Assembly: GCA_029856145.1 (NCBI GenBank)
Contig: JAHQWK010000028.1
Location: 1 to 64,000 of the forward strand
Reading direction: 5' to 3'
Origin: Promethearchaeia archaeon
GTDB taxonomy: Archaea; Asgardarchaeota; Lokiarchaeia; Sigyniarchaeales; SOKP01
Length of the DNA: 64,000 nucleotides
The notes beneath the pieces were generated by a model. That model made no database searches, was not told the origin of the DNA, and saw nothing but the letters and a program-made list of their open reading frames with translations. The position numbers and the translations under genes were made by a program. This document shows positions 3,700 to 15,702 of this stretch, piece after piece (positions within the stretch are counted from its first letter, which is position 1; the number at the start of each line of letters is the position of its first letter).

Positions 3700-6600
3700 A
3701 TGTATTCAGGAGAGTATTATGACGCCTATACTGAGAACAAGGAAGACCTTACTGATCTATACGACTATTATCAACCCCATATTGCGAACTTCAGCTATCT
3801 TTACGTTTCATGGGCAGATGATAATGCGTGGAAAGAATGGCACACCATAGAAGCTCCAAATGTTGATATCAGCACCTTAGATATTATGTTTGAGTGGTAT
3901 GATGATACTTCGGAGGAGTACGATTCTGTATATTATAACCAGACGCTTAATGAATTTGAAGCCAGAAATATAGCTGTTGAGATTGTATACCCATATGATA
4001 AAAATATACAAACTGCAAATTTTACCTTATCACAGGACTACTCTAGCGCCCAAGACCTCGATATTATGCTGATTAAAGGGTACTTTTTCAACGAAACTGG
4101 GAAAGATTTTGATCCAGATAATGTAAATATATACTCAAGTGAAAAATTAATTGAAATTTCAGCTCCAAGTGGATATACATTAGATAATTTTGAGAAAATT
4201 ATTATTTATCTTAACTTCACAGAGGGGGCATATTCAGATTATACCCAATTTAGATTTTTACAAGCTGCTATTAATAATAATCCTGAAGTTCCATTATGGA
4301 CCAAGAATGATTCGCTCTATGTGGACTTTGAATACAATGATATTGATTACTTCCTCCTTATGGAAGAGTATGCAGTTGGATCTGAAGATTCTATGTTTGA
4401 ATATTTTGCTTACACGAGAAATAATAAGTTTGTAGATTATGATGATGTTGATACGACCTATTCATTAGATAAGATAGAGCAGTATCAAGATTTCGATAAC
4501 TTCACAAAAGTTAACGATCCAAAGACATTGCTAGAGTTCTTTGATTTTGATGAGGATTGTACCCATGAGCTCGTAATCCAGAAGGATGATATCACCCAGA
4601 ATGGAGTCTATGATAGTTTCAAATATGGCTACATCAACCCAGCGGGAGAGATTACGTTCCATACGCTTGTCCAAGAAGTAGCAACTACAGAAGTTCATAC
4701 TGATAAAGTAAATGATGTAAGAAAGACTGAGAGATACTCTATTGATAGTAAAGATCCCGAATATATAACGACTGCTCAGCGTACCATTATCACTAATAGC
4801 ACAATAACTTATAGAATACAGAAGCTAACCACTTTAATTCAAAAAGATGATGATTATGATGGATATATTGATCATGAAGTATCCTATGAGCAGACCTTTT
4901 ACAGCTCATATACAGTTCTTTACTCCACAGAAGTTACTTATATTCATTTCAAACTAAGAGACGGTTCTGAGAACTTAGAAGGTGGTCAAGAAGAATATGA
5001 GGGATACTTGACAGAATATAGGAATTCCACACATATTATTTCCGATTCAAGTATGTCCTATGCGTTTAGAGATTTCGAGTATGGTGAGGTTGTAAGCACC
5101 AGATATTATGATGATGTATTTCCAAACGAGTTATCGGAAGTATATAACTTAGACAATAATCTTGTGCCAGTTATCAATGATAATGGAGATGAAGATAGTT
5201 CCAATGATGTTATTACCTACGTTCCTGCCCTTGAGAATCTTTTATCCCTTTCCCATCCTAGAGATGGAATTCCAGCTATATTTGATAGAAGAATTATAAT
5301 TAACGGTTCTGTGGAATTTGATAATATTTTAGCAACTCAGAAAGTTATCTCAATTGCGGCTACTTATAATGAGGGTACAGGAATTAATGATTATTTAACC
5401 GAACAAAAGATTGTCGCTGATGTTATCGAGGTGGTTCCAGAAACGGGAGTATATTATGATAACGTCCGAGGATATGCTCCAGATAACCTTGAAGGGTATA
5501 GATACCTTTACTATGATGAAGATGGTGATGGTCTTCACAGTACAATCTTTATTGCCGACTCAGATGGCGAAGTGGTCGGAATTGGCTTCGATTACGATGG
5601 AAACTCCTATTTCGAGCCTCATAAGGTCATGATTACAGAGAAACATATTATTACAAGTGCGGCTACCGCAGATGATGACATAGCTTTGAAAATGACATTA
5701 AAATATACCGGTCATGAATCAATTAATTATCAAGATACTGACAGTTATGATGGCATGTTTGTAGAGCCTACATTCAGAGATTCTTTATTTGATATCTGGA
5801 AATCGCAATATACAGGGACGTCCAGTGATTTAATCAGATTTGCGATGCGACTTACGCATCAAGTATTTATAGAATCTCTTTCTGCTGAGAAAATCATTGG
5901 AGATATCGCATGGCAAGTAGTTTCACAATTAACGGCATTTGTAGTTGGAAAGGTCACGGGAATAGCTTTGACTGGTATAATAGGAGCATGTACTTCAATA
6001 GGCTCGGCGTGGCCAGGTTTCGGGACTGCAATTGGTTTTATTGTCGGTATGCTTATGTATTGGCTTTTAAACTCTGCTATGGCAGTTGCGCAGCAAAAAG
6101 AGATAAACAACTATTTAGCTTCTCAGACCACTTATAACGAGGAATATCAAGACACCAAGACGCTCTCGGATAAGTGGTGGATGGATAGATATTTTGGCGA
6201 TATCATGCCAAATACACTTCAAGGAAGTAAGGCAGGAGTCTATACTCCAGTAAAAGCTGAGACGGACAAGCATATATATGAGGGAGAGGTTATTCTTGCC
6301 CCTGCTCATATCGAGAAGACGACCGTTTTCGGCACTCAATTTAACCCACTATTATTAGATTATTCGCAGCAGACACGATCTTATCTGCAATATTCGGATT
6401 TTGATGATCCCCTGTTGATGTCATTCTTCAATCAAGATATAGAGGAATTTTATGGAATATCTATTGAGCAACTTCCAATATTAGATAGCTTAGATCTCAC
6501 TCAACCCCATGATCTGCGAGCCCTTTACATGAGAAATTCCATTATGTACTTAGAAGATGAGATTTATAAGGCAACTGAAAACGATCCTGAAGATAGTATT

Positions 6601-9600
6601 TCATATGATCGCATTATTCCGTACATGGTTGGCGTGAGACCCTCATTACAGTTTATCGATTCTGATACAGTTTTAGCTCCAGAGTTTTACCTTGACTATC
6701 CTATTTATGTAGATCATGAACAATATGGCGCTCTTGAAGAAGAATATTATCACATTTACAAAGTCTATAATGGCACTACAGATATCATACAGTTGATCCC
6801 CGAAGATACTGTGGAGAATCGCTTAATTATGTCAGATATCGTGAATATTGTGCCTTACTATGTAGATTCACTGGGAAATCAACTTCCACTTTTGGACATT
6901 GACTATATTCCGGAATTTATTTTTAATGCAATTACAGGAGAAGTAATTTTAAATTCAAGTTTTACAATACTTTTAGAAGAACGTCTTGCTGATATGGAAG
7001 ATCTATATAACAATGTTGAGGGGTACGAAGGTCATATTATTCTCGAATTTTGCATAGAAAAATATAGGGATATTTCCGTGGAGAGAGATGACATCACACC
7101 AGAAGAAGCTTATCAAATTGCGACCATGCAATCTGCCCACCAAGCGATTTTAGAATACACATACCAATTTACCATTGCGGAACAGACTCAGCAGAGACTT
7201 TCCGAGGCATGTTACACCATATTTGTCACTATTATTAGTACTCTTATTGTAATGGGCGCTACGATTGTAATTGACAAAGCATTTAGTAAATTAGCTAATA
7301 ATCTATTTGATAAGTTAGATGATGCGATTCAAGCAGGGACTGCTGGAAAAAGGCTAGCTAATCTTTATAATAATATGAATGCAGGAGAATTATTCAATAG
7401 CCTTCTTAATCCCGTATCTAGAGGTCTTGGATATAACATGTTTAAAATCACGAAAGCGCTGATTTCTGAAAGTATTCAAGAAGTATTTGTTGACCCCTGG
7501 ATTGAAGCCTACGTTACCAACGCGGTAGCAGATCTTGGTTGGGACGAGACAGCACAAATATACCTCAGTGGGCTTGCTGAGACCGGGCGTGAGTTCCTTT
7601 TCAGCGCAGTCACTCAGTTTATGTGGGCAAGTGTGAGGCCCCAAACTTCGCTGAACCTTCAGAATATAGCTGCTCAGCAGCAACTGACCATAGAGCAGAT
7701 GAATGAGATGAGGCAACAAACACAAGAAGCTCAAATTCAGAAAGATAATCGGAAAGATTATATCCGTGACAGCTTCTTCACGGTGATGATGTTTATGGGT
7801 GCGATGATGGGAGGCTTCGGTGGGTCAATCGGCATGACTATTGGAAATCTTATGATTGTCGGCGGTGATTCAGCTGACAGTTTATTTGAATTGAAGGATG
7901 CCGTTAAAGATATTTTAGAATCAAGACACCAAGAAGTTCGAGTCCACTTTGATGCTAAGATTGCTGACACACTTAGAGCAGAGATTGCTATGAAAAATTG
8001 GATTGATGAAGATCTGAGAGAAGCAATAGATTGGGCTACTCTTAGTGAACCGCAAAAGCAAGAGCAAATTGAGTATGAATATATCCCATCCAATTTTGAA
8101 GTATGGGCAGATATGGTAAGCCGCTCTCGATTGTTGGGTACACCAGTAGGAATGCACCTAATGCCAGGCGATCCAAATAATTATATCGCACAACGTTTCC
8201 CACGATTGCCCCAGTATTTAGGTGATAATGTCTTTAGATCTATATTAAGAGAAGTTCTGAACTTCCTAGATCAAGAGTCGGAGAATATTATGAGAGACAC
8301 AAATGGCATGACTGAACAAGAAGCATTAAATTATATTACTAGAAATGCAATGCAATACTTGCATAGTGAAAAAGCAGATTTAATGGACAGTTTATCTCGA
8401 CAAGATGAATCAAAGCCTAACAAGATCGCTCCCAAGGTGAAAATTTACATTTCTGTCATTTATTTATTAAAGTTCACTAACAAATTAGTGAATCAGATAC
8501 ATAGATCTATTTCGGGTGTTAAGCATCAATACATTAAATTCGTCAAGGATTATCTTGAACTTTCTGCTCCAGAGAGGTTCACTTATAATATTAAAAACAT
8601 CGAAGATATGTTAAATTCAATTGATTATGAATTGGTTTCACCATTGACTCAGAGGGAATTCGATTTATTGGAAGGTGATTCATCAGCCAAAAGAATTAAA
8701 ATAAAGTGCCCAGAAGGTCATGAATATTTTACAAATCCTTCAAGTATAAAAAACAAGATGCTTAAAGGTGAAGGATTATGTCAAAAATGTTATCATAAGT
8801 CAAGAAGGGTGTATACTTTTGAAAGTATAGTACAAGAAGTAGGTGAACGGGAAGATTTAATAATTTTTCCAAAGACTCAGGAAGATTGGGATTCAATAGG
8901 AGGATTTCCTTCTGACAGAAAGATTAAGGTTAAGTGTGGTCAATGTGGTGAGGAAAGAGAGTGTATGGCAAAGACATATTTCGAATATGAACGTTGCCCA
9001 AGTTGCTTTCATATAGACGCTTCGCTTTCTTATGAGACGGTTAGAGATAGGGGATTAAATGAAGGATTTAGGTTAAAGACTCCTAAAGTAAAGTTTAATA
9101 AGATAAAAGCTTCCTATGCTCTTGATGGTACTAAGACTTGGGCGACAGAAGGTTTAGAATGGAAATGTCTAGATTGTGAAGAAATTGTTAAAATAACTTT
9201 TCAAAGTATAAGAGATGCTAGAACTGGATGCCCTTCGTGTAAGATGTCAGAACATCAGAAACATAGTCATAAATATTTAGAAGCAACATTTGATTCACCA
9301 TTTGAATCAGAGAAGAGGTTAGGTGATATTGATTTAGATGAGATTGGGGTATCACCTTCAGGTTCCTTATTTAGTCCAAATCTTGTGTTTGACGGATATG
9401 CAATAGTTCGAATTCCAGGTTGCTCAACACCTATCCCAGTACTTTTTGAAGCTCGTGGTTATCAATATTGGCATTGGCCGAATCAGTACTTTAAAGGGAC
9501 ATATGAGGATTTTCTAGCTTGGCAGCATTATAGGGCAAATGCTGAGCAGAAAAATAGATTTGCTCATGAACATAAAATAGTACTTATTTCGATTTACGAG

Positions 9601-9756
9601 GAAAAATTATGGACTAGAGCCCAAGTCAGGTCAGAACTTATTCGTCAATTTAAATTGCAAACTAAAGCTTACGGATACTCTGAAGATGGAATAACCTTAG
9701 ATCCACCTGAATATAATAATTTTATTTTTAGGAGAAGATTCTTAGGTTTAATTTAA
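3700..9756 (+). CDS. Giant acidic protein with Ca-binding-like motifs, Gly-rich hydrophobic helices and C-terminal Zn ribbons plus Vsr/PD-(D/E)xK-like nuclease domain (polymorphic-toxin-like)
   Basis: 2018-aa ORF; DxDxDG-type motifs; three hydrophobic segments; C-terminal CPEGH/CQKC, CGQC/CPSC, CLDC/CPSC and FDGY...FEARGYQYWH. Confidence 0.65.
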   Translation: MYSGEYYDAYTENKEDLTDLYDYYQPHIANFSYLYVSWADDNAWKEWHTIEAPNVDISTLDIMFEWYDDTSEEYDSVYYNQTLNEFEARNIAVEIVYPYDKNIQTANFTLSQDYSSAQDLDIMLIKGYFFNETGKDFDPDNVNIYSSEKLIEISAPSGYTLDNFEKIIIYLNFTEGAYSDYTQFRFLQAAINNNPEVPLWTKNDSLYVDFEYNDIDYFLLMEEYAVGSEDSMFEYFAYTRNNKFVDYDDVDTTYSLDKIEQYQDFDNFTKVNDPKTLLEFFDFDEDCTHELVIQKDDITQNGVYDSFKYGYINPAGEITFHTLVQEVATTEVHTDKVNDVRKTERYSIDSKDPEYITTAQRTIITNSTITYRIQKLTTLIQKDDDYDGYIDHEVSYEQTFYSSYTVLYSTEVTYIHFKLRDGSENLEGGQEEYEGYLTEYRNSTHIISDSSMSYAFRDFEYGEVVSTRYYDDVFPNELSEVYNLDNNLVPVINDNGDEDSSNDVITYVPALENLLSLSHPRDGIPAIFDRRIIINGSVEFDNILATQKVISIAATYNEGTGINDYLTEQKIVADVIEVVPETGVYYDNVRGYAPDNLEGYRYLYYDEDGDGLHSTIFIADSDGEVVGIGFDYDGNSYFEPHKVMITEKHIITSAATADDDIALKMTLKYTGHESINYQDTDSYDGMFVEPTFRDSLFDIWKSQYTGTSSDLIRFAMRLTHQVFIESLSAEKIIGDIAWQVVSQLTAFVVGKVTGIALTGIIGACTSIGSAWPGFGTAIGFIVGMLMYWLLNSAMAVAQQKEINNYLASQTTYNEEYQDTKTLSDKWWMDRYFGDIMPNTLQGSKAGVYTPVKAETDKHIYEGEVILAPAHIEKTTVFGTQFNPLLLDYSQQTRSYLQYSDFDDPLLMSFFNQDIEEFYGISIEQLPILDSLDLTQPHDLRALYMRNSIMYLEDEIYKATENDPEDSISYDRIIPYMVGVRPSLQFIDSDTVLAPEFYLDYPIYVDHEQYGALEEEYYHIYKVYNGTTDIIQLIPEDTVENRLIMSDIVNIVPYYVDSLGNQLPLLDIDYIPEFIFNAITGEVILNSSFTILLEERLADMEDLYNNVEGYEGHIILEFCIEKYRDISVERDDITPEEAYQIATMQSAHQAILEYTYQFTIAEQTQQRLSEACYTIFVTIISTLIVMGATIVIDKAFSKLANNLFDKLDDAIQAGTAGKRLANLYNNMNAGELFNSLLNPVSRGLGYNMFKITKALISESIQEVFVDPWIEAYVTNAVADLGWDETAQIYLSGLAETGREFLFSAVTQFMWASVRPQTSLNLQNIAAQQQLTIEQMNEMRQQTQEAQIQKDNRKDYIRDSFFTVMMFMGAMMGGFGGSIGMTIGNLMIVGGDSADSLFELKDAVKDILESRHQEVRVHFDAKIADTLRAEIAMKNWIDEDLREAIDWATLSEPQKQEQIEYEYIPSNFEVWADMVSRSRLLGTPVGMHLMPGDPNNYIAQRFPRLPQYLGDNVFRSILREVLNFLDQESENIMRDTNGMTEQEALNYITRNAMQYLHSEKADLMDSLSRQDESKPNKIAPKVKIYISVIYLLKFTNKLVNQIHRSISGVKHQYIKFVKDYLELSAPERFTYNIKNIEDMLNSIDYELVSPLTQREFDLLEGDSSAKRIKIKCPEGHEYFTNPSSIKNKMLKGEGLCQKCYHKSRRVYTFESIVQEVGEREDLIIFPKTQEDWDSIGGFPSDRKIKVKCGQCGEERECMAKTYFEYERCPSCFHIDASLSYETVRDRGLNEGFRLKTPKVKFNKIKASYALDGTKTWATEGLEWKCLDCEEIVKITFQSIRDARTGCPSCKMSEHQKHSHKYLEATFDSPFESEKRLGDIDLDEIGVSPSGSLFSPNLVFDGYAIVRIPGCSTPIPVLFEARGYQYWHWPNQYFKGTYEDFLAWQHYRANAEQKNRFAHEHKIVLISIYEEKLWTRAQVRSELIRQFKLQTKAYGYSEDGITLDPPEYNNFIFRRRFLGLI

Positions 9757-12341: not shown

Positions 12342-12635
12342 TTAAAATAATGAGCCAATCCCTGTAGGTTCCTCTTCTTCTTTAGCTTCCTCTTTTTTCT
12401 TCTTTTCTCCTTTTTTCTTCTCAGCAGTACCTCCTGCTGGAGCAGCAGTTACAGGTATAGTGCTAGCAGATTTTATAATATCCTCAATCTTTGTTCCTTT
12501 TAGACCAGCAATTAGTTTTGTGATTTCTGTTTTATCAACTTTCGCACCTGCGGCAGTTAATACCTTTTCTACGTTTGCTTCGGTAATTTTACCTCCAGTT
12601 TTATGGAGTAATAAAGCTGCATAAATACTTTCCAT
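12342..12635 (-). CDS. rpl12p: Ribosomal stalk protein P1/L12p
   Basis: MESIYAALLLH...EEEEPTGIGSLF. Confidence 0.97.
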   Translation of the reverse strand: MESIYAALLLHKTGGKITEANVEKVLTAAGAKVDKTEITKLIAGLKGTKIEDIIKSASTIPVTAAPAGGTAEKKKGEKKKKEEAKEEEEPTGIGSLF

Positions 12636-12712
12636 ATTATCTAACCTCTTTTTTATTTTTTTATCATTATATTTGTAATTTTAATTGAAATTTAAAAAAA
12701 AATCTTAATTTT

Positions 12713-13606
12713 CTATCCAAACAATCCTCCAATACCAACATCTTCCTTTTCTTCTTCCTTTTCAGGTTCTTTTTCTTCGACTTTAGGCTTTTCTTTCTTT
12801 ATTTGAACTTGGATTCCTTCCCCGAAAATAATAGAATTTAATACACTAGCTTCAGAAGCAGCTTTTCGAATATAATCCTCTTTCATATCTTCCAAGAAGA
12901 ATGGCATCTCGAATAAAATTGCAAGTGCTTCTCTATAAGCTGTAGCAACGTCTTGTTCAAATTTTTCTATATCCATGTATAATATTTCCTCAGGTATTAT
13001 TTCACCATCACACCATGCAAAGTGAATTTTAATTAAGGATTCTATTGGTGTAATTCCTAATTTTTTCAAAACTGCTGCTTGTTTAACATTAACTAAATCA
13101 CCAGTTTTATGTGTTCTTGTATCTTCTCGAATATATATAGTATCATTCATAATTCTCGTTGGCAATCGTAAAGTCATGTTTAATTCACTAATAACTTGTC
13201 CTGTTGGTAAACCTGTATCTCCCGCGGGGACCCAAATATCTACAGGGGTGATTTCGTTTGGCTTTGCTGGAACCATCCACTCATTTTTCATAAAGATCTT
13301 CTTTAATTCAAATAGATCAAGATTAGTAAAAACAAGACTTGATTGACCTGGGATGTGATCTGCTAATTCATCTAAACTTTTCTTTTTGGCTTCACTTTTA
13401 TATTGTTCTATTGCGCGGAGTTGAAGTGATTTTTTGGACATTCTGAATACTGCTTTTCCTCTTAAAATTTTACGCATAGTTTGAATTTGCATATCATTAA
13501 TATGTGCAACTTCAATAACAATAATATTTTTGTAATTTCTAAATAAATCAACTAAATGATTAATTTCATCAATTTTCCATTGTGGTATATGTTTATTTTT
13601 AATCAT
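12713..13606 (-). CDS. rpl10: Ribosomal protein uL10/P0
   Basis: IPQWKIDE, VPAGDTGLPTG, C-terminal GIGGLFG; operon context. Confidence 0.97.
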   Translation of the reverse strand: MIKNKHIPQWKIDEINHLVDLFRNYKNIIVIEVAHINDMQIQTMRKILRGKAVFRMSKKSLQLRAIEQYKSEAKKKSLDELADHIPGQSSLVFTNLDLFELKKIFMKNEWMVPAKPNEITPVDIWVPAGDTGLPTGQVISELNMTLRLPTRIMNDTIYIREDTRTHKTGDLVNVKQAAVLKKLGITPIESLIKIHFAWCDGEIIPEEILYMDIEKFEQDVATAYREALAILFEMPFFLEDMKEDYIRKAASEASVLNSIIFGEGIQVQIKKEKPKVEEKEPEKEEEKEDVGIGGLFG

Positions 13607-13610
13607 AAGT

Positions 13611-14339
13611 TCACACCTCGATAGTTTTTAGGAATTCTTCTGTTACATTTACAGATTTTCCCATTGTAGATTTAAGATACATCGATTTAAAATTATTGAA
13701 CCTATGAGGCATTTGATCTGCTATGAAATTTACGATAGTCTTCATGTTTTCAAATAATTTGTCTATACTCATAGTTTTCTTACCAATCTTAGCGAAAATA
13801 ATAGGTTGTTTTTTCATTTGAATTCTAATGATTTTTTTATATCGTTCATAAGCTGTTTTTAAATCTTCAGGACTAGAAATAATTCCATATCCCGTAGGGA
13901 AAGGTTTTGGCATTTTACCAACAGGTCCAAGAAATCTTGCTAAATATCGAGCAACATCTCTCATCATTTTATCTTCTACAACAAAGTAATCATATTTTTT
14001 AGCAAATTTTTTCTTGGATTTTTTCTCTTCACTATTTAATTTAACCAAACCGTCTGAATCGATAGTATCAACCCCTAGTTTTTTTGCTTCTAGTAATATC
14101 TCATCAGACGCAATCACACAAATATTTGGTTTATCATTCGTAACTATTTCATTCGATAAGATAATCTCTTTATCAATTCGGTTTTTTGGATCATTTAAGT
14201 TAACATCTTTAATATTGATGATAAGATCAATGGACTCATCAAATTTTCTTACTTTATCTTTAAAGCCTTCTTTTTTTATTACTGAAAAATCAATAGCAGC
14301 ATCTAATGATCTTCTTAATAATTTATCATCTACTTTCAA
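13611..14339 (-). CDS. rpl1: Ribosomal protein uL1
   Basis: RKFDESIDL, LGPVGKMPKP, KSTMGKS. Confidence 0.97.
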   Translation of the reverse strand: MKVDDKLLRRSLDAAIDFSVIKKEGFKDKVRKFDESIDLIINIKDVNLNDPKNRIDKEIILSNEIVTNDKPNICVIASDEILLEAKKLGVDTIDSDGLVKLNSEEKKSKKKFAKKYDYFVVEDKMMRDVARYLARFLGPVGKMPKPFPTGYGIISSPEDLKTAYERYKKIIRIQMKKQPIIFAKIGKKTMSIDKLFENMKTIVNFIADQMPHRFNNFKSMYLKSTMGKSVNVTEEFLKTIEV

Positions 14340-14345
14340 ATTCTA

Positions 14346-14868
14346 TTATTCACCTCTTATTTTATCGTCATATTGTCCATTATCAATTCGCTTTTGGATG
14401 ATCCTAGGATCTTCTCCTTCTACTGTTAGTCCTACTGATAATGCTGTTCCTAACACTGTCTTTACAGCTGTTTTATATGTCTTATCTAAAAATTTCTCTC
14501 TTTTGCCATCAACTACATTCTGAATTTGGTCAAGTGTCAAATTCCCAATTATTTGTTCTGAAGTGGCAGAAGTTCCTTTTTCAGCACCAACTTCTTTAAG
14601 TAATAATGATGCTGTAGAAGGTGTTTCAATGAATATTTCAAACTGTTTTGTTTCTGTATCACATTCAATTCTAACCGGTACAGTTAACCCCTTAAAGACC
14701 ATTGTCTGTTTATTGATCTCGTCTACTACATCTTTAATGTATGCATCGAAAATCGAAATAATTTTCGTTTATGCCAGTAGGTCCAACAGTAGGTCCAATT
14801 GGCGGGCCACCTGACGCACTTCCTCCGGTCACAAGAGCCTTTACAACAACTTTTCCTTTTTCACTCAC
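14346..14868 (-). CDS. rpl11: Ribosomal protein uL11, split gene: exon 1 14868-14769, exon 2 14740-14346 (164 aa spliced)
   Basis: GTG start after GGTGA; exon 1 encodes ...VTGGSASGGPPIGPTVGPTGI; exon 2 continues NIKDVVDEINKQTMVFKGLTVPV... The ORF track only caught 14346-14702. Confidence 0.95.
14741..14768 (-). other. 28-nt bulge-helix-bulge mRNA intron in uL11
   Basis: GCAU/AUGC 4-bp central helix, 3-nt bulges AAA and AUA, inner stem CGAAAAU/AUUUUCG; removal at canonical sites restores the frame. Confidence 0.88.
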
Positions 14869-14920
14869 ATACTCTCACCGTTTAATTTTTCTTATTATAA
14901 TTCAAAAAATATTCCTAAGG

Positions 14921-14996
14921 TTAAGAACGCGAAATTTTTATGAATAACTTATTCAATATCTATTATATATTGAAACCGCTTTAATTTGCGTCCTAA
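14921..14996 (-). promoter_or_regulatory. Long imperfect hairpin/palindrome upstream of uL11 operon
   Basis: UUAGGACGCAAAUU pairs with AAUUUCGCGUUCUUAA, enclosing the perfect IR TTCAATAT-N7-ATATTGAA. Confidence 0.35.
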
Positions 14997-15114: not shown

Positions 15115-15702
15115 TTAAAACCATTTGACAATATAATTACATTGATTATCTCCATTATTCCTACAAAGTCCTGAATCATCATGCTCAACTCGTAGAAACT
15201 TTGAATTTTTTGGAACAAAAATTCTTGCTGTATTTGTAATTATCCCTCTATCAAAATCACACGGATAAGAGTTATTACATATCATTTTTACTTCTTTATC
15301 ATCAATTTTTTCAAACCTATAATGACCAATTCCTTCTTTCATAGTTCCTGTTTCCGGATCATAAAGAATTTTATCCTCTATTCTATGACTCATGTGAAAA
15401 GCAATATCTATAGATGCCAGAGCCTTTTCGATACTGTCAAATTCTCGTGGCCACTTTGTATTCTCAGAAATTTTATTTCCTACTACATAAAGTGTATTTG
15501 GCCCAAAGACTTCAAATATTGTTTTAAATGCATCTAACCAGTTTTGTTGAGGATACCATTTATCTTTTTGAGGATTTTCAATATTATTATCAATTAAAAT
15601 TTGTAATATTCTTTCCTTGACAGTAGGTAATCCTTCAACCATTCCTAATATAGACTTTCCACTAACTTCTACTTTTGGATTAATTACTTTAAATTGCACC
15701 AA
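15115..15702 (-). CDS. V4R/H-NOX-like small-ligand sensor domain protein
   Basis: WYPQQNWLDAF, SIDIAFHMSHR, YPCDFDRGII...CR...C.Y.V.W pattern. Confidence 0.65.
   Translation of the reverse strand: MVQFKVINPKVEVSGKSILGMVEGLPTVKERILQILIDNNIENPQKDKWYPQQNWLDAFKTIFEVFGPNTLYVVGNKISENTKWPREFDSIEKALASIDIAFHMSHRIEDKILYDPETGTMKEGIGHYRFEKIDDKEVKMICNNSYPCDFDRGIITNTARIFVPKNSKFLRVEHDDSGLCRNNGDNQCNYIVKWF

What the first reader, a model, noticed from the sequence alone, without database searches (positions are those of the whole stretch)
14741..14768. Bulge-helix-bulge intron interrupting the ribosomal protein uL11 mRNA
Seen in sequence (minus strand): ...CCUACUG GCAU AA^A CGAAAAU UAUUUCG AUUUUCG AUGC AU^A CAUUAAAGAU. 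It has a 4-bp helix (GCAU/AUGC), two 3-nt bulges on opposite strands, a 7-8-bp intron stem and a short exon-exon helix. Unspliced, the frame ends ...GINENYFDFRCIH*. Cutting after the 2nd base of each bulge, the established rule for the archaeal tRNA-splicing endonuclease, removes 28 nt. That yields GGC AUA AAC AUU AAA GAU (GINIKD) and an intact 164-aa uL11. Established: BHB introns occur mostly in archaeal tRNA/rRNA, and the classic protein-coding case is crenarchaeal cbf5. Inference: this core translation gene needs EndA/RtcB-type mRNA splicing, in what appears to be an Asgard lineage. I cannot check whether this case has been published.
Basis: partly seen in the sequence, partly recalled or inferred. 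Interest (0 to 1): 0.95.

Follow-up and report, generated by a model that had tools for sequence, protein, structure and literature searches.

The report
tRNA-type intron splits Asgard uL11 gene
The only gene for ribosomal protein uL11 in this Asgard (Loki-type) archaeon is broken by a 28-base insert shaped exactly like the introns archaea cut out of tRNAs, and 46 related genomes carry such inserts at four spots in the same gene, so the message is very probably spliced; in the papers I could search, splicing inside an archaeal coding sequence was confirmed only for the gene cbf5.

Summary
Confirmed. Removing 14741-14768 from the genome's only uL11 gene restores a 164-aa protein. The junction folds as a canonical hBHBh' motif (4-bp helix, two 3-nt bulges, 8-bp intron stem, 2-bp exon stem; shuffle P about 2e-5).

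In the same family (Promethearchaeota), 47 genomes carry 57 inserts of 28-38 nt at four uL11 sites. Every insert breaks the frame or carries a stop, and the BHB-rule cut restores the conserved protein. Of 55 distinct inserts, 47 have a fully paired central helix (3.8 expected by chance). Stems show compensatory changes, and exon codons are fixed only where they pair. Intron-less alleles exist; uL11 is intact in all 26 genomes of other families. The genome encodes a two-subunit EndA with the broad-specificity loop, plus RtcB, and at least five more candidate mRNA introns.

Best reading: an EndA/RtcB-spliced mRNA intron (0.9). No RNA read covered the junction, so splicing is inferred, not shown. 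Ribosome hopping, restart and pseudogene readings failed tests. This scan already noted the same uL11 intron and class on other DNA. I found no paper reporting it.

The parts
14875..14879 (-). Shine-Dalgarno-like GGUGA, 6 nt before the GTG start
   Evidence: sequence; present in most congener leaders shown; function inferred
14769..14868 (-). uL11 exon 1 (GTG start; 33 codons plus the first base of Asn34)
   Evidence: Pfam Ribosomal_L11_N positions 1-26; pN/pS 0.10 in carriers, 0.085 in intron-less alleles
14771..14774 (-). exon strand of the central 4-bp helix (GCAU; Gly32-Ile33 codons)
   Evidence: fold; GGC ATA in 30 of 32 carriers vs 11 of 95 non-carriers
14768..14770 (-). 5' bulge AA^A, predicted 5' cut between 14769 and 14768
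   Evidence: BHB rule; first two bases fixed in 28 of 28 distinct site-C introns
14741..14768 (-). 28-nt BHB intron (site C, inside the Asn34 codon)
14747..14767 (-). intron hairpin h': 8-bp stem (7 Watson-Crick pairs and one U-G), 5-nt loop AUUUC
   Evidence: fold; 3 pairs with two-sided change, 96% of cells paired
14743..14746 (-). intron strand of the central helix (AUGC)
   Evidence: 4 of 4 paired in 27 of 28 distinct site-C introns, including the variant GUAU/AUAU
14740..14742 (-). 3' bulge AU^A, predicted 3' cut between 14741 and 14740
   Evidence: middle base (last intron base) varies A/U/C/G, outer bases fixed
14346..14740 (-). uL11 exon 2
   Evidence: Pfam L11_N positions 27-58 plus Ribosomal_L11; pN/pS 0.15, same as intron-less alleles
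12342..14339 (-). downstream stalk genes uL1 (13611-14339), uL10 (12713-13606) and P1/aL12 (12342-12635), probably co-transcribed; no insert found in them
   Evidence: ORFs; Pfam names of syntenic orthologues

Best explanation
The 28 nt are an intron in the uL11 mRNA. The pre-mRNA folds into a bulge-helix-bulge motif. The host's two-subunit splicing endonuclease (EndA) cuts after the second base of each bulge, and RtcB ligates the exons, rebuilding the Asn34 codon and a 164-aa uL11. The intron probably leaves as a small hairpin or circle. It is most likely a tolerated, rapidly gained and lost passenger that persists because the constitutive tRNA-splicing machinery removes it, not a dedicated switch. 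Shown: DNA anatomy, fold potential, conservation, covariation, and the presence of the enzyme genes. Inferred: folding in vivo, cleavage, ligation, product, and lack of regulatory role.
For: (1) Single uL11 copy, both exons under the same purifying selection as intron-less alleles. (2) 57 inserts in 47 genomes at four codons (Ser17, Ile24, Val28, Asn34). All break the frame (41) or hold a stop (16 of 16 in-frame ones). In 46 of 47 genomes the best BHB register is also a top-scoring protein restoration; the other is 1 point below. (3) Central helix fully paired in 47 of 55 distinct inserts vs 3.8 expected; at least 3 of 4 pairs in all 55. The inserts fall into four related groups, so this is not 55 independent tests. 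(4) Compensatory changes: UGGG/CCCA to AGGG/CCCU at Ser17, GCAU/AUGC to GUAU/AUAU at Asn34, three two-sided changes in the intron stem. (5) Synonymous exon positions are fixed only where they pair. (6) The genome has an EndA alpha whose best solved match is Aeropyrum-type EndA (3p1z/3ajv, E 1e-34) with the loop insert and the catalytic His, a second paralogue lacking that His, RtcB, and intron-bearing tRNAs. Asgard EndA is reported as (alpha-beta)2 with the L1 loop (PMC5829648). (7) A homology scan blind to BHB found further 30-32-nt frame- or stop-breaking hairpin inserts in this genome.
Against: No transcript evidence: RNA-labelled runs did not cover the junction, and an exact-pattern scan of JGI contigs found nothing. 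The exon-exon helix is only 2 bp and 60% paired across carriers. In a longer context a competing fold has lower energy. Site B introns often have only 3 of 4 central pairs. At this site the downstream frame is open across the insert, so a +1 frameshift is formally possible.
Confidence: 0.9

Rival explanations
1. Translational bypassing: the ribosome hops over the 28-nt hairpin, as in T4 gene 60 or yeast mitochondrial byps, and the mRNA stays unspliced.
For: Short hairpin insert of similar size; in the window the take-off codon AAC and the landing codon UAC share two bases.
Against: Take-off and landing codons are identical in only 1 of 28 distinct site-C inserts for the Asn option; the base that should match varies freely. 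No stop follows the take-off codon in the window. Hopping does not explain a conserved 4-bp exon-intron helix flanked by two 3-nt bulges at four sites.
Confidence: 0.03
2. Programmed +1 frameshift that reads through the insert, giving uL11 with about 9 extra residues.
For: The downstream frame is open across the 28-nt insert in the site-C carriers of the genus.
Against: Inserts at the same site are 28, 29 or 31 nt, which need different shifts, and 16 inserts at other sites are in frame with stops. The insert's encoded residues are not conserved while its pairing is. The extra residues would fall in a segment that is invariant in the family.
Confidence: 0.025
3. Broken or split gene: uL11 is lost, or made as a 44-aa piece plus a 118-aa piece restarting at Met47; the hairpin is incidental.
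For: Databases annotate the 118-aa piece as a protein. uL11 is dispensable in some bacteria (own knowledge). Met47 is present in 26 of 32 carriers.
Against: Exon 1 keeps pN/pS about 0.1. Six carriers have Gln, Thr or Val at residue 47. Tails of the unspliced peptide vary. Up to three inserts coexist in one gene, and all restore the same sequence.
Confidence: 0.02
4. Splicing is real but is a regulated switch that couples stalk-protein output to EndA/RtcB capacity.
For: The intron sits in the first gene of a probable uL11-uL1-uL10-P1 operon. A negative-regulator role was proposed for the cbf5 intron (PMC2738675).
Against: About half of the congeners have no uL11 intron. Sister genomes differ in site and number, and 16 carriers need 15 changes on the tree. 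Similar introns sit in unrelated metabolic genes.
Confidence: 0.12
5. Assembly artefact or DNA-level excision.
For: Several relatives' contigs end near this region, which may reflect strain mixtures.
Against: An independent DNA contig matches with zero differences. The same intron is in other genomes and samples, with covarying variants.
Confidence: 0.01

Closest known systems
cbf5 pre-mRNA intron of Desulfurococcales and Sulfolobales (Watanabe 2002; Yoshinari 2006; Yokobori 2009, PMC2738675)
   Same: Short BHB-bounded intron inside a coding sequence, splitting a codon; host has a hetero-oligomeric EndA; intron-less relatives exist.
   Different: cbf5 is one site in one gene, inferred as gained once and then lost in some lineages, and its splicing is demonstrated. 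Here the host is Asgard, the gene is a ribosomal protein with four sites within 17 codons and up to three introns per gene, presence is scattered on the tree, several other genes are affected, and splicing is not yet demonstrated.
Archaeal tRNA BHB introns, including the repeatedly gained introns of Asgard tRNA genes (bioRxiv 10.64898/2026.10.13.758758)
   Same: Same hBHBh' / HBh' / hBH geometry, similar size, repeated gains, patchy presence among close relatives.
   Different: That study covers tRNA genes only (no mention of mRNA or cbf5), its intron-rich classes are Jordiarchaeia and Atabeyarchaeia, and it notes that none of its new introns has been shown to be spliced.
Haloferax HVO_1309 5' UTR BHB intron (PMC7714728)
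   Same: An mRNA substrate of the splicing endonuclease, cleaved in vitro.
   Different: It lies in a 5' UTR, not in a coding frame, and in a euryarchaeon.
HAC1/XBP1 unconventional intron of eukaryotes (own knowledge; XBP1 intron mentioned in PMC12530127 abstract)
   Same: Small frameshifting mRNA intron removed by a protein nuclease and a tRNA ligase (RtcB in animals).
   Different: Cut by IRE1 at two stem-loops, stress-regulated and a single gene; no BHB motif and no homology tested.
Translational bypass elements (T4 gene 60; mitochondrial byps)
   Same: Short hairpin inserts that break a conserved frame.
   Different: They need matched take-off and landing codons, which are not met here.

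Membership tests
Archaeal BHB (EndA-type) intron | 4-bp central helix between exon 1 and the intron 3' end | tested here: met
   GCAU/AUGC, 4 Watson-Crick pairs; 27 of 28 distinct site-C introns fully paired
Archaeal BHB (EndA-type) intron | Two 3-nt bulges on opposite strands, cut after the second base | tested here: met
   AA^A and AU^A; this cut restores the conserved protein here and in 46 relatives. The position is predicted; three registers are equivalent in DNA.
Archaeal BHB (EndA-type) intron | Flanking helices h and/or h' of at least 2 pairs (rule as given) | tested here: met
   h' 8 bp with covariation, h 2 bp: canonical hBHBh' in the window; h is weak in relatives
Archaeal BHB (EndA-type) intron | Host encodes EndA and an RNA ligase | tested here: met
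   Two EndA paralogues, one with the loop insert and the catalytic His; RtcB E 1e-170
Archaeal BHB (EndA-type) intron | Spliced RNA exists in the cell | tested here: inconclusive
   No RNA contig covered the junction; full-length look-alikes traced to DNA contigs or could not be read
Archaeal BHB (EndA-type) intron | Cleavage by EndA in vitro | not testable with these tools
   needs bench assay
Translational bypass element | Matched take-off and landing codons | tested here: not met
   identical in 1 of 28 for the Asn option
Spliceosomal, group I or group II intron | GU-AG ends, or a ribozyme core of hundreds of nt | tested here: not met
   ends are AC..AU and variable, length 28-38 nt; no Rfam match
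Homing (mobile) archaeal intron | Intron-encoded or neighbouring homing endonuclease; co-conversion of flanks | tested here: inconclusive
   No ORF fits in 28 nt; no LAGLIDADG_3 match in the own genome (other nuclease families not searched); no clear conversion tract beyond the paired codons; the scattered tree pattern fits mobility or repeated loss

The most novel reading that the evidence does not exclude
One family of Loki-type Asgard archaea has tRNA-type mini-introns spreading through protein genes. There are at least half a dozen per genome, including core translation genes (uL11, and probably uS3 and aIF2-gamma), and they turn over between sister species. EndA/RtcB would thus act as a routine mRNA-splicing system in relatives of the eukaryotic host lineage, and many of their genes are mis-annotated as truncated.
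Probability: 0.75. Interest if true: 0.88.

Novelty: new variant of a known kind. Interest (0 to 1): 0.8.

Why it matters
Splicing inside an archaeal coding sequence is, in the literature I could search, established for one gene (cbf5). A ribosomal protein gene with four alternative intron sites, in a lineage close to the ancestry of eukaryotes, would show that protein-only mRNA splicing can become routine. It gives a natural system for watching intron gain and loss between sister species, which the Asgard tRNA preprint names as the open problem. It also matters in practice: uL11 is a phylogenetic marker, and carriers are annotated with N-terminally wrong 118-152-aa products. It is no evidence of ancestry of spliceosomal introns: the chemistry differs, and uL11 is intact in the other families of the class.

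Tried and rejected
RNA evidence. Runs X12, X13 (labelled RNA, probably DNA) and X20 (RNA) gave no contig over 14620-14860, which says nothing either way. Full-length 164-165-aa look-alikes came from contigs with genes on both strands or labelled METAG (P0001, P0132, P0142, P0143, P0150), from a contig of unstated type whose junction codons differ from carriers' (P0003), or from files that could not be read (P0029, P0114). No intron-less contig showed the carriers' GGC ATA AAC junction.

Genome scans. The intrinsic BHB-plus-ORF scan is swamped by chance hits in this 30% GC genome; only its top rank for uL11 is used. Two scripts timed out and one crashed after printing. Apparent inserts at alignment ends in distant families are artefacts, since those frames are open. 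The first hop and Met47 tallies used the wrong frame and were redone.

Other. Rfam: no match. The sigma-70 promoter scan is not informative for an archaeon. No clear co-conversion tract. Ten literature searches found no report of Asgard mRNA introns or an archaeal rpl11 intron; the library lacks most subscription papers.

Full report
Observation. On the minus strand, a GTG at 14868 preceded by GGUGA opens a uL11 frame that stops after 44 residues. Deleting 14741-14768 gives an open 164-aa frame; exon 1 matches Pfam L11_N positions 1-26 and exon 2 positions 27-58 plus the RNA-binding domain. Three deletion registers give the same product. No second uL11 is in the assembly (3.55 Mb, 97% complete). 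The junction folds as a 4-bp helix GCAU/AUGC, two 3-nt bulges, an 8-bp intron stem and a 2-bp exon stem, which is canonical hBHBh' by the published rule. Shuffling the intron reproduces this in 2 of 100,000. Relaxed BHB-like motifs are common in this genome (22,961), but this one ranks first when rejoining of coding frames is required. A DNA contig from another study matches the stretch without difference.

Organism and machinery. The nearest named homologues are Promethearchaeota (Lokiarchaeota) L11 proteins. The genome encodes two EndA paralogues and RtcB. The alpha subunit is closest to chains 3p1z_B and 3ajv_B among solved structures and keeps the loop insert and the catalytic His; the second paralogue lacks that His. 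This fits the (alpha-beta)2 enzyme with the L1 loop reported for Asgard archaea (PMC5829648). Several tRNAs carry introns.

Relatives. A Pfam L11_N search over 161 genomes of the class found the domain split only in the window's family (about half of its genus) and whole in all 26 genomes of other families with a match. A spliced alignment that uses protein similarity only placed inserts at four codons: Ser17, Ile24, Val28 and Asn34, the window's site. There are 57 inserts of 28-38 nt in 47 genomes, up to three in one gene. My sample outside the genus was chosen for being split, so frequencies there are not estimates. All inserts break the frame or hold a stop. The best BHB register was a top-scoring protein restoration in 46 of 47 genomes and one point below in the other. 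The central helix is fully paired in 47 of 55 distinct inserts against 3.8 expected from shuffles allowed three registers; the inserts form four related groups, so the true number of independent tests is small, but each group passes.

Selection on the fold. At the window's site 27 of 28 distinct introns keep all four central pairs, and one variant changes both sides (GUAU/AUAU). The intron stem has three pairs with two-sided changes, and the structure beats all slid controls (91% paired vs 25-41%). At Ser17 the helix switches between UGGG/CCCA and AGGG/CCCU. The Gly32-Ile33 codons are GGC ATA in 30 of 32 carriers and 11 of 95 non-carriers, while other third positions vary as in non-carriers. 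The last intron base varies freely. Both exons are under the same purifying selection as intron-less alleles.

History. On a uL11+uL1 tree of 71 genomes, 16 carriers of the Asn34 intron need 15 changes and are no more clustered than shuffled labels. One sister pair differing at 12% of third positions overall differs, in 20 codons around the site, only by the intron and the two paired third positions. This fits exchange of a very short DNA patch, or repeated gain and loss; direction is not resolved. No LAGLIDADG_3 nuclease was found in the genome, and no conversion tract beyond the paired codons is clear.

Other genes. Comparing 1,768 orthologues from a congener, without using the BHB motif, recovered uL11 and further 30-32-nt frame- or stop-breaking hairpin inserts. 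Two have a full central helix and a long flanking helix (a NifU-type domain, a B12-binding mutase subunit), one has a full central helix with short flanks (a GHMP kinase, by motif mevalonate kinase), and three are relaxed (uppS by motif, aIF2-gamma by motif, uS3). This is a lower bound, because shared introns and absent orthologues are missed.

Mechanism. Most likely the pre-mRNA folds the BHB motif, EndA cuts both bulges and RtcB ligates the exons (0.9). Ribosome hopping fails on codon matching. Frameshifting cannot cover inserts of three frame classes or in-frame stops. A split or dead gene conflicts with exon-1 conservation and the variable Met47. A regulatory role is possible but unsupported, given the patchy presence. 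The gap is direct RNA evidence, which I looked for and did not obtain.

Known context. Splicing within an archaeal coding sequence is established for cbf5 (PMC2738675); a 2020 paper names cbf5 as the only earlier mRNA case and adds a 5' UTR intron in Haloferax (PMC7714728). An October 2026 preprint describes repeated gains of BHB introns in Asgard tRNA genes but not in mRNAs. Ten searches found no report of this case. Earlier notes of this scan describe the same uL11 intron and class in other genomes; they are not independent support, and the tests above are my own.

Verdict. A real, very probably spliced BHB intron in uL11: a new variant of the cbf5 kind, because it is multi-site, multi-gene and fast-turning, in an Asgard lineage. 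Interest 0.8, held back by the lack of transcript evidence.

Noticed in passing
G000:C10:33334-33363 (+); C19:57732-57763 (+); C3:203065-203095 (+): 30-32-nt inserts with a full central helix in a NifU-type gene, a B12-binding mutase subunit (same GCAU/AUGC helix as uL11) and a GHMP kinase (mevalonate kinase by motif).
   Followed up: partly
G000:C8:31424-31453 (-); C5:34200-34229 (+); C3:195586-195615 (-): 30-nt stop- or frame-breaking hairpin inserts with relaxed BHB folds in uS3, aIF2-gamma (in the GHVDHGKT motif) and uppS; removal restores the orthologue.
   Followed up: partly
G000:C11:130098-130127 (-); C31:29239-29270 (-): Weak 30- and 32-nt candidates near the end of an OsmC-like gene and the start of a large TPR gene; poor BHB, probably not introns.
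   Followed up: partly
window 14865-14870 (-): An ATG-TGA start-stop overlaps the GTG start of uL11 (ATGTGA), also in several congeners; could be a by-product of the leader sequence.
   Followed up: no
window 14920-14980 (-): Conserved non-coding blocks upstream of uL11 in the genus (CGGTTTCAATAT, GATATTGAA, CGCGTTCT): promoter elements or a leader site such as a uL1 feedback site; not tested.
   Followed up: no
uL11 codon 34 across genus: Asn34 is AAT in all 28 non-carriers but AAC in 7 of 10 carriers, where that base closes the exon-exon pair.
   Followed up: partly
L287:1118-1145; L124:5630-5645: uL1 is broken in two metagenome contigs: a 28-nt insert flanked by a near direct repeat (duplication or intron), and a short frameshifting deletion (probably an assembly error).
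   Followed up: partly
G000 whole genome: ARAGORN finds only about 13 credible tRNA genes in a 97%-complete genome, including tRNA-Sec; many tRNAs may be multiply interrupted or unassembled.
   Followed up: no
G026, G120, G138, G141: Contigs of several relatives end inside or next to uL11, as expected if populations mix intron-bearing and intron-less alleles.
   Followed up: no
window 3700-9756 (+): A 2018-aa acidic, Asp/Tyr-rich ORF with several CxxC motifs in its C-terminal part; unannotated here.
   Followed up: no
window 15115-15702 (-): A 195-aa ORF just upstream of uL11 with no Pfam match, absent at this place in close relatives.
   Followed up: partly
G022:C1: The reference congener has two uL2 matches on one contig, so it may be a mixed bin; it was used only as a protein reference.
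   Followed up: no
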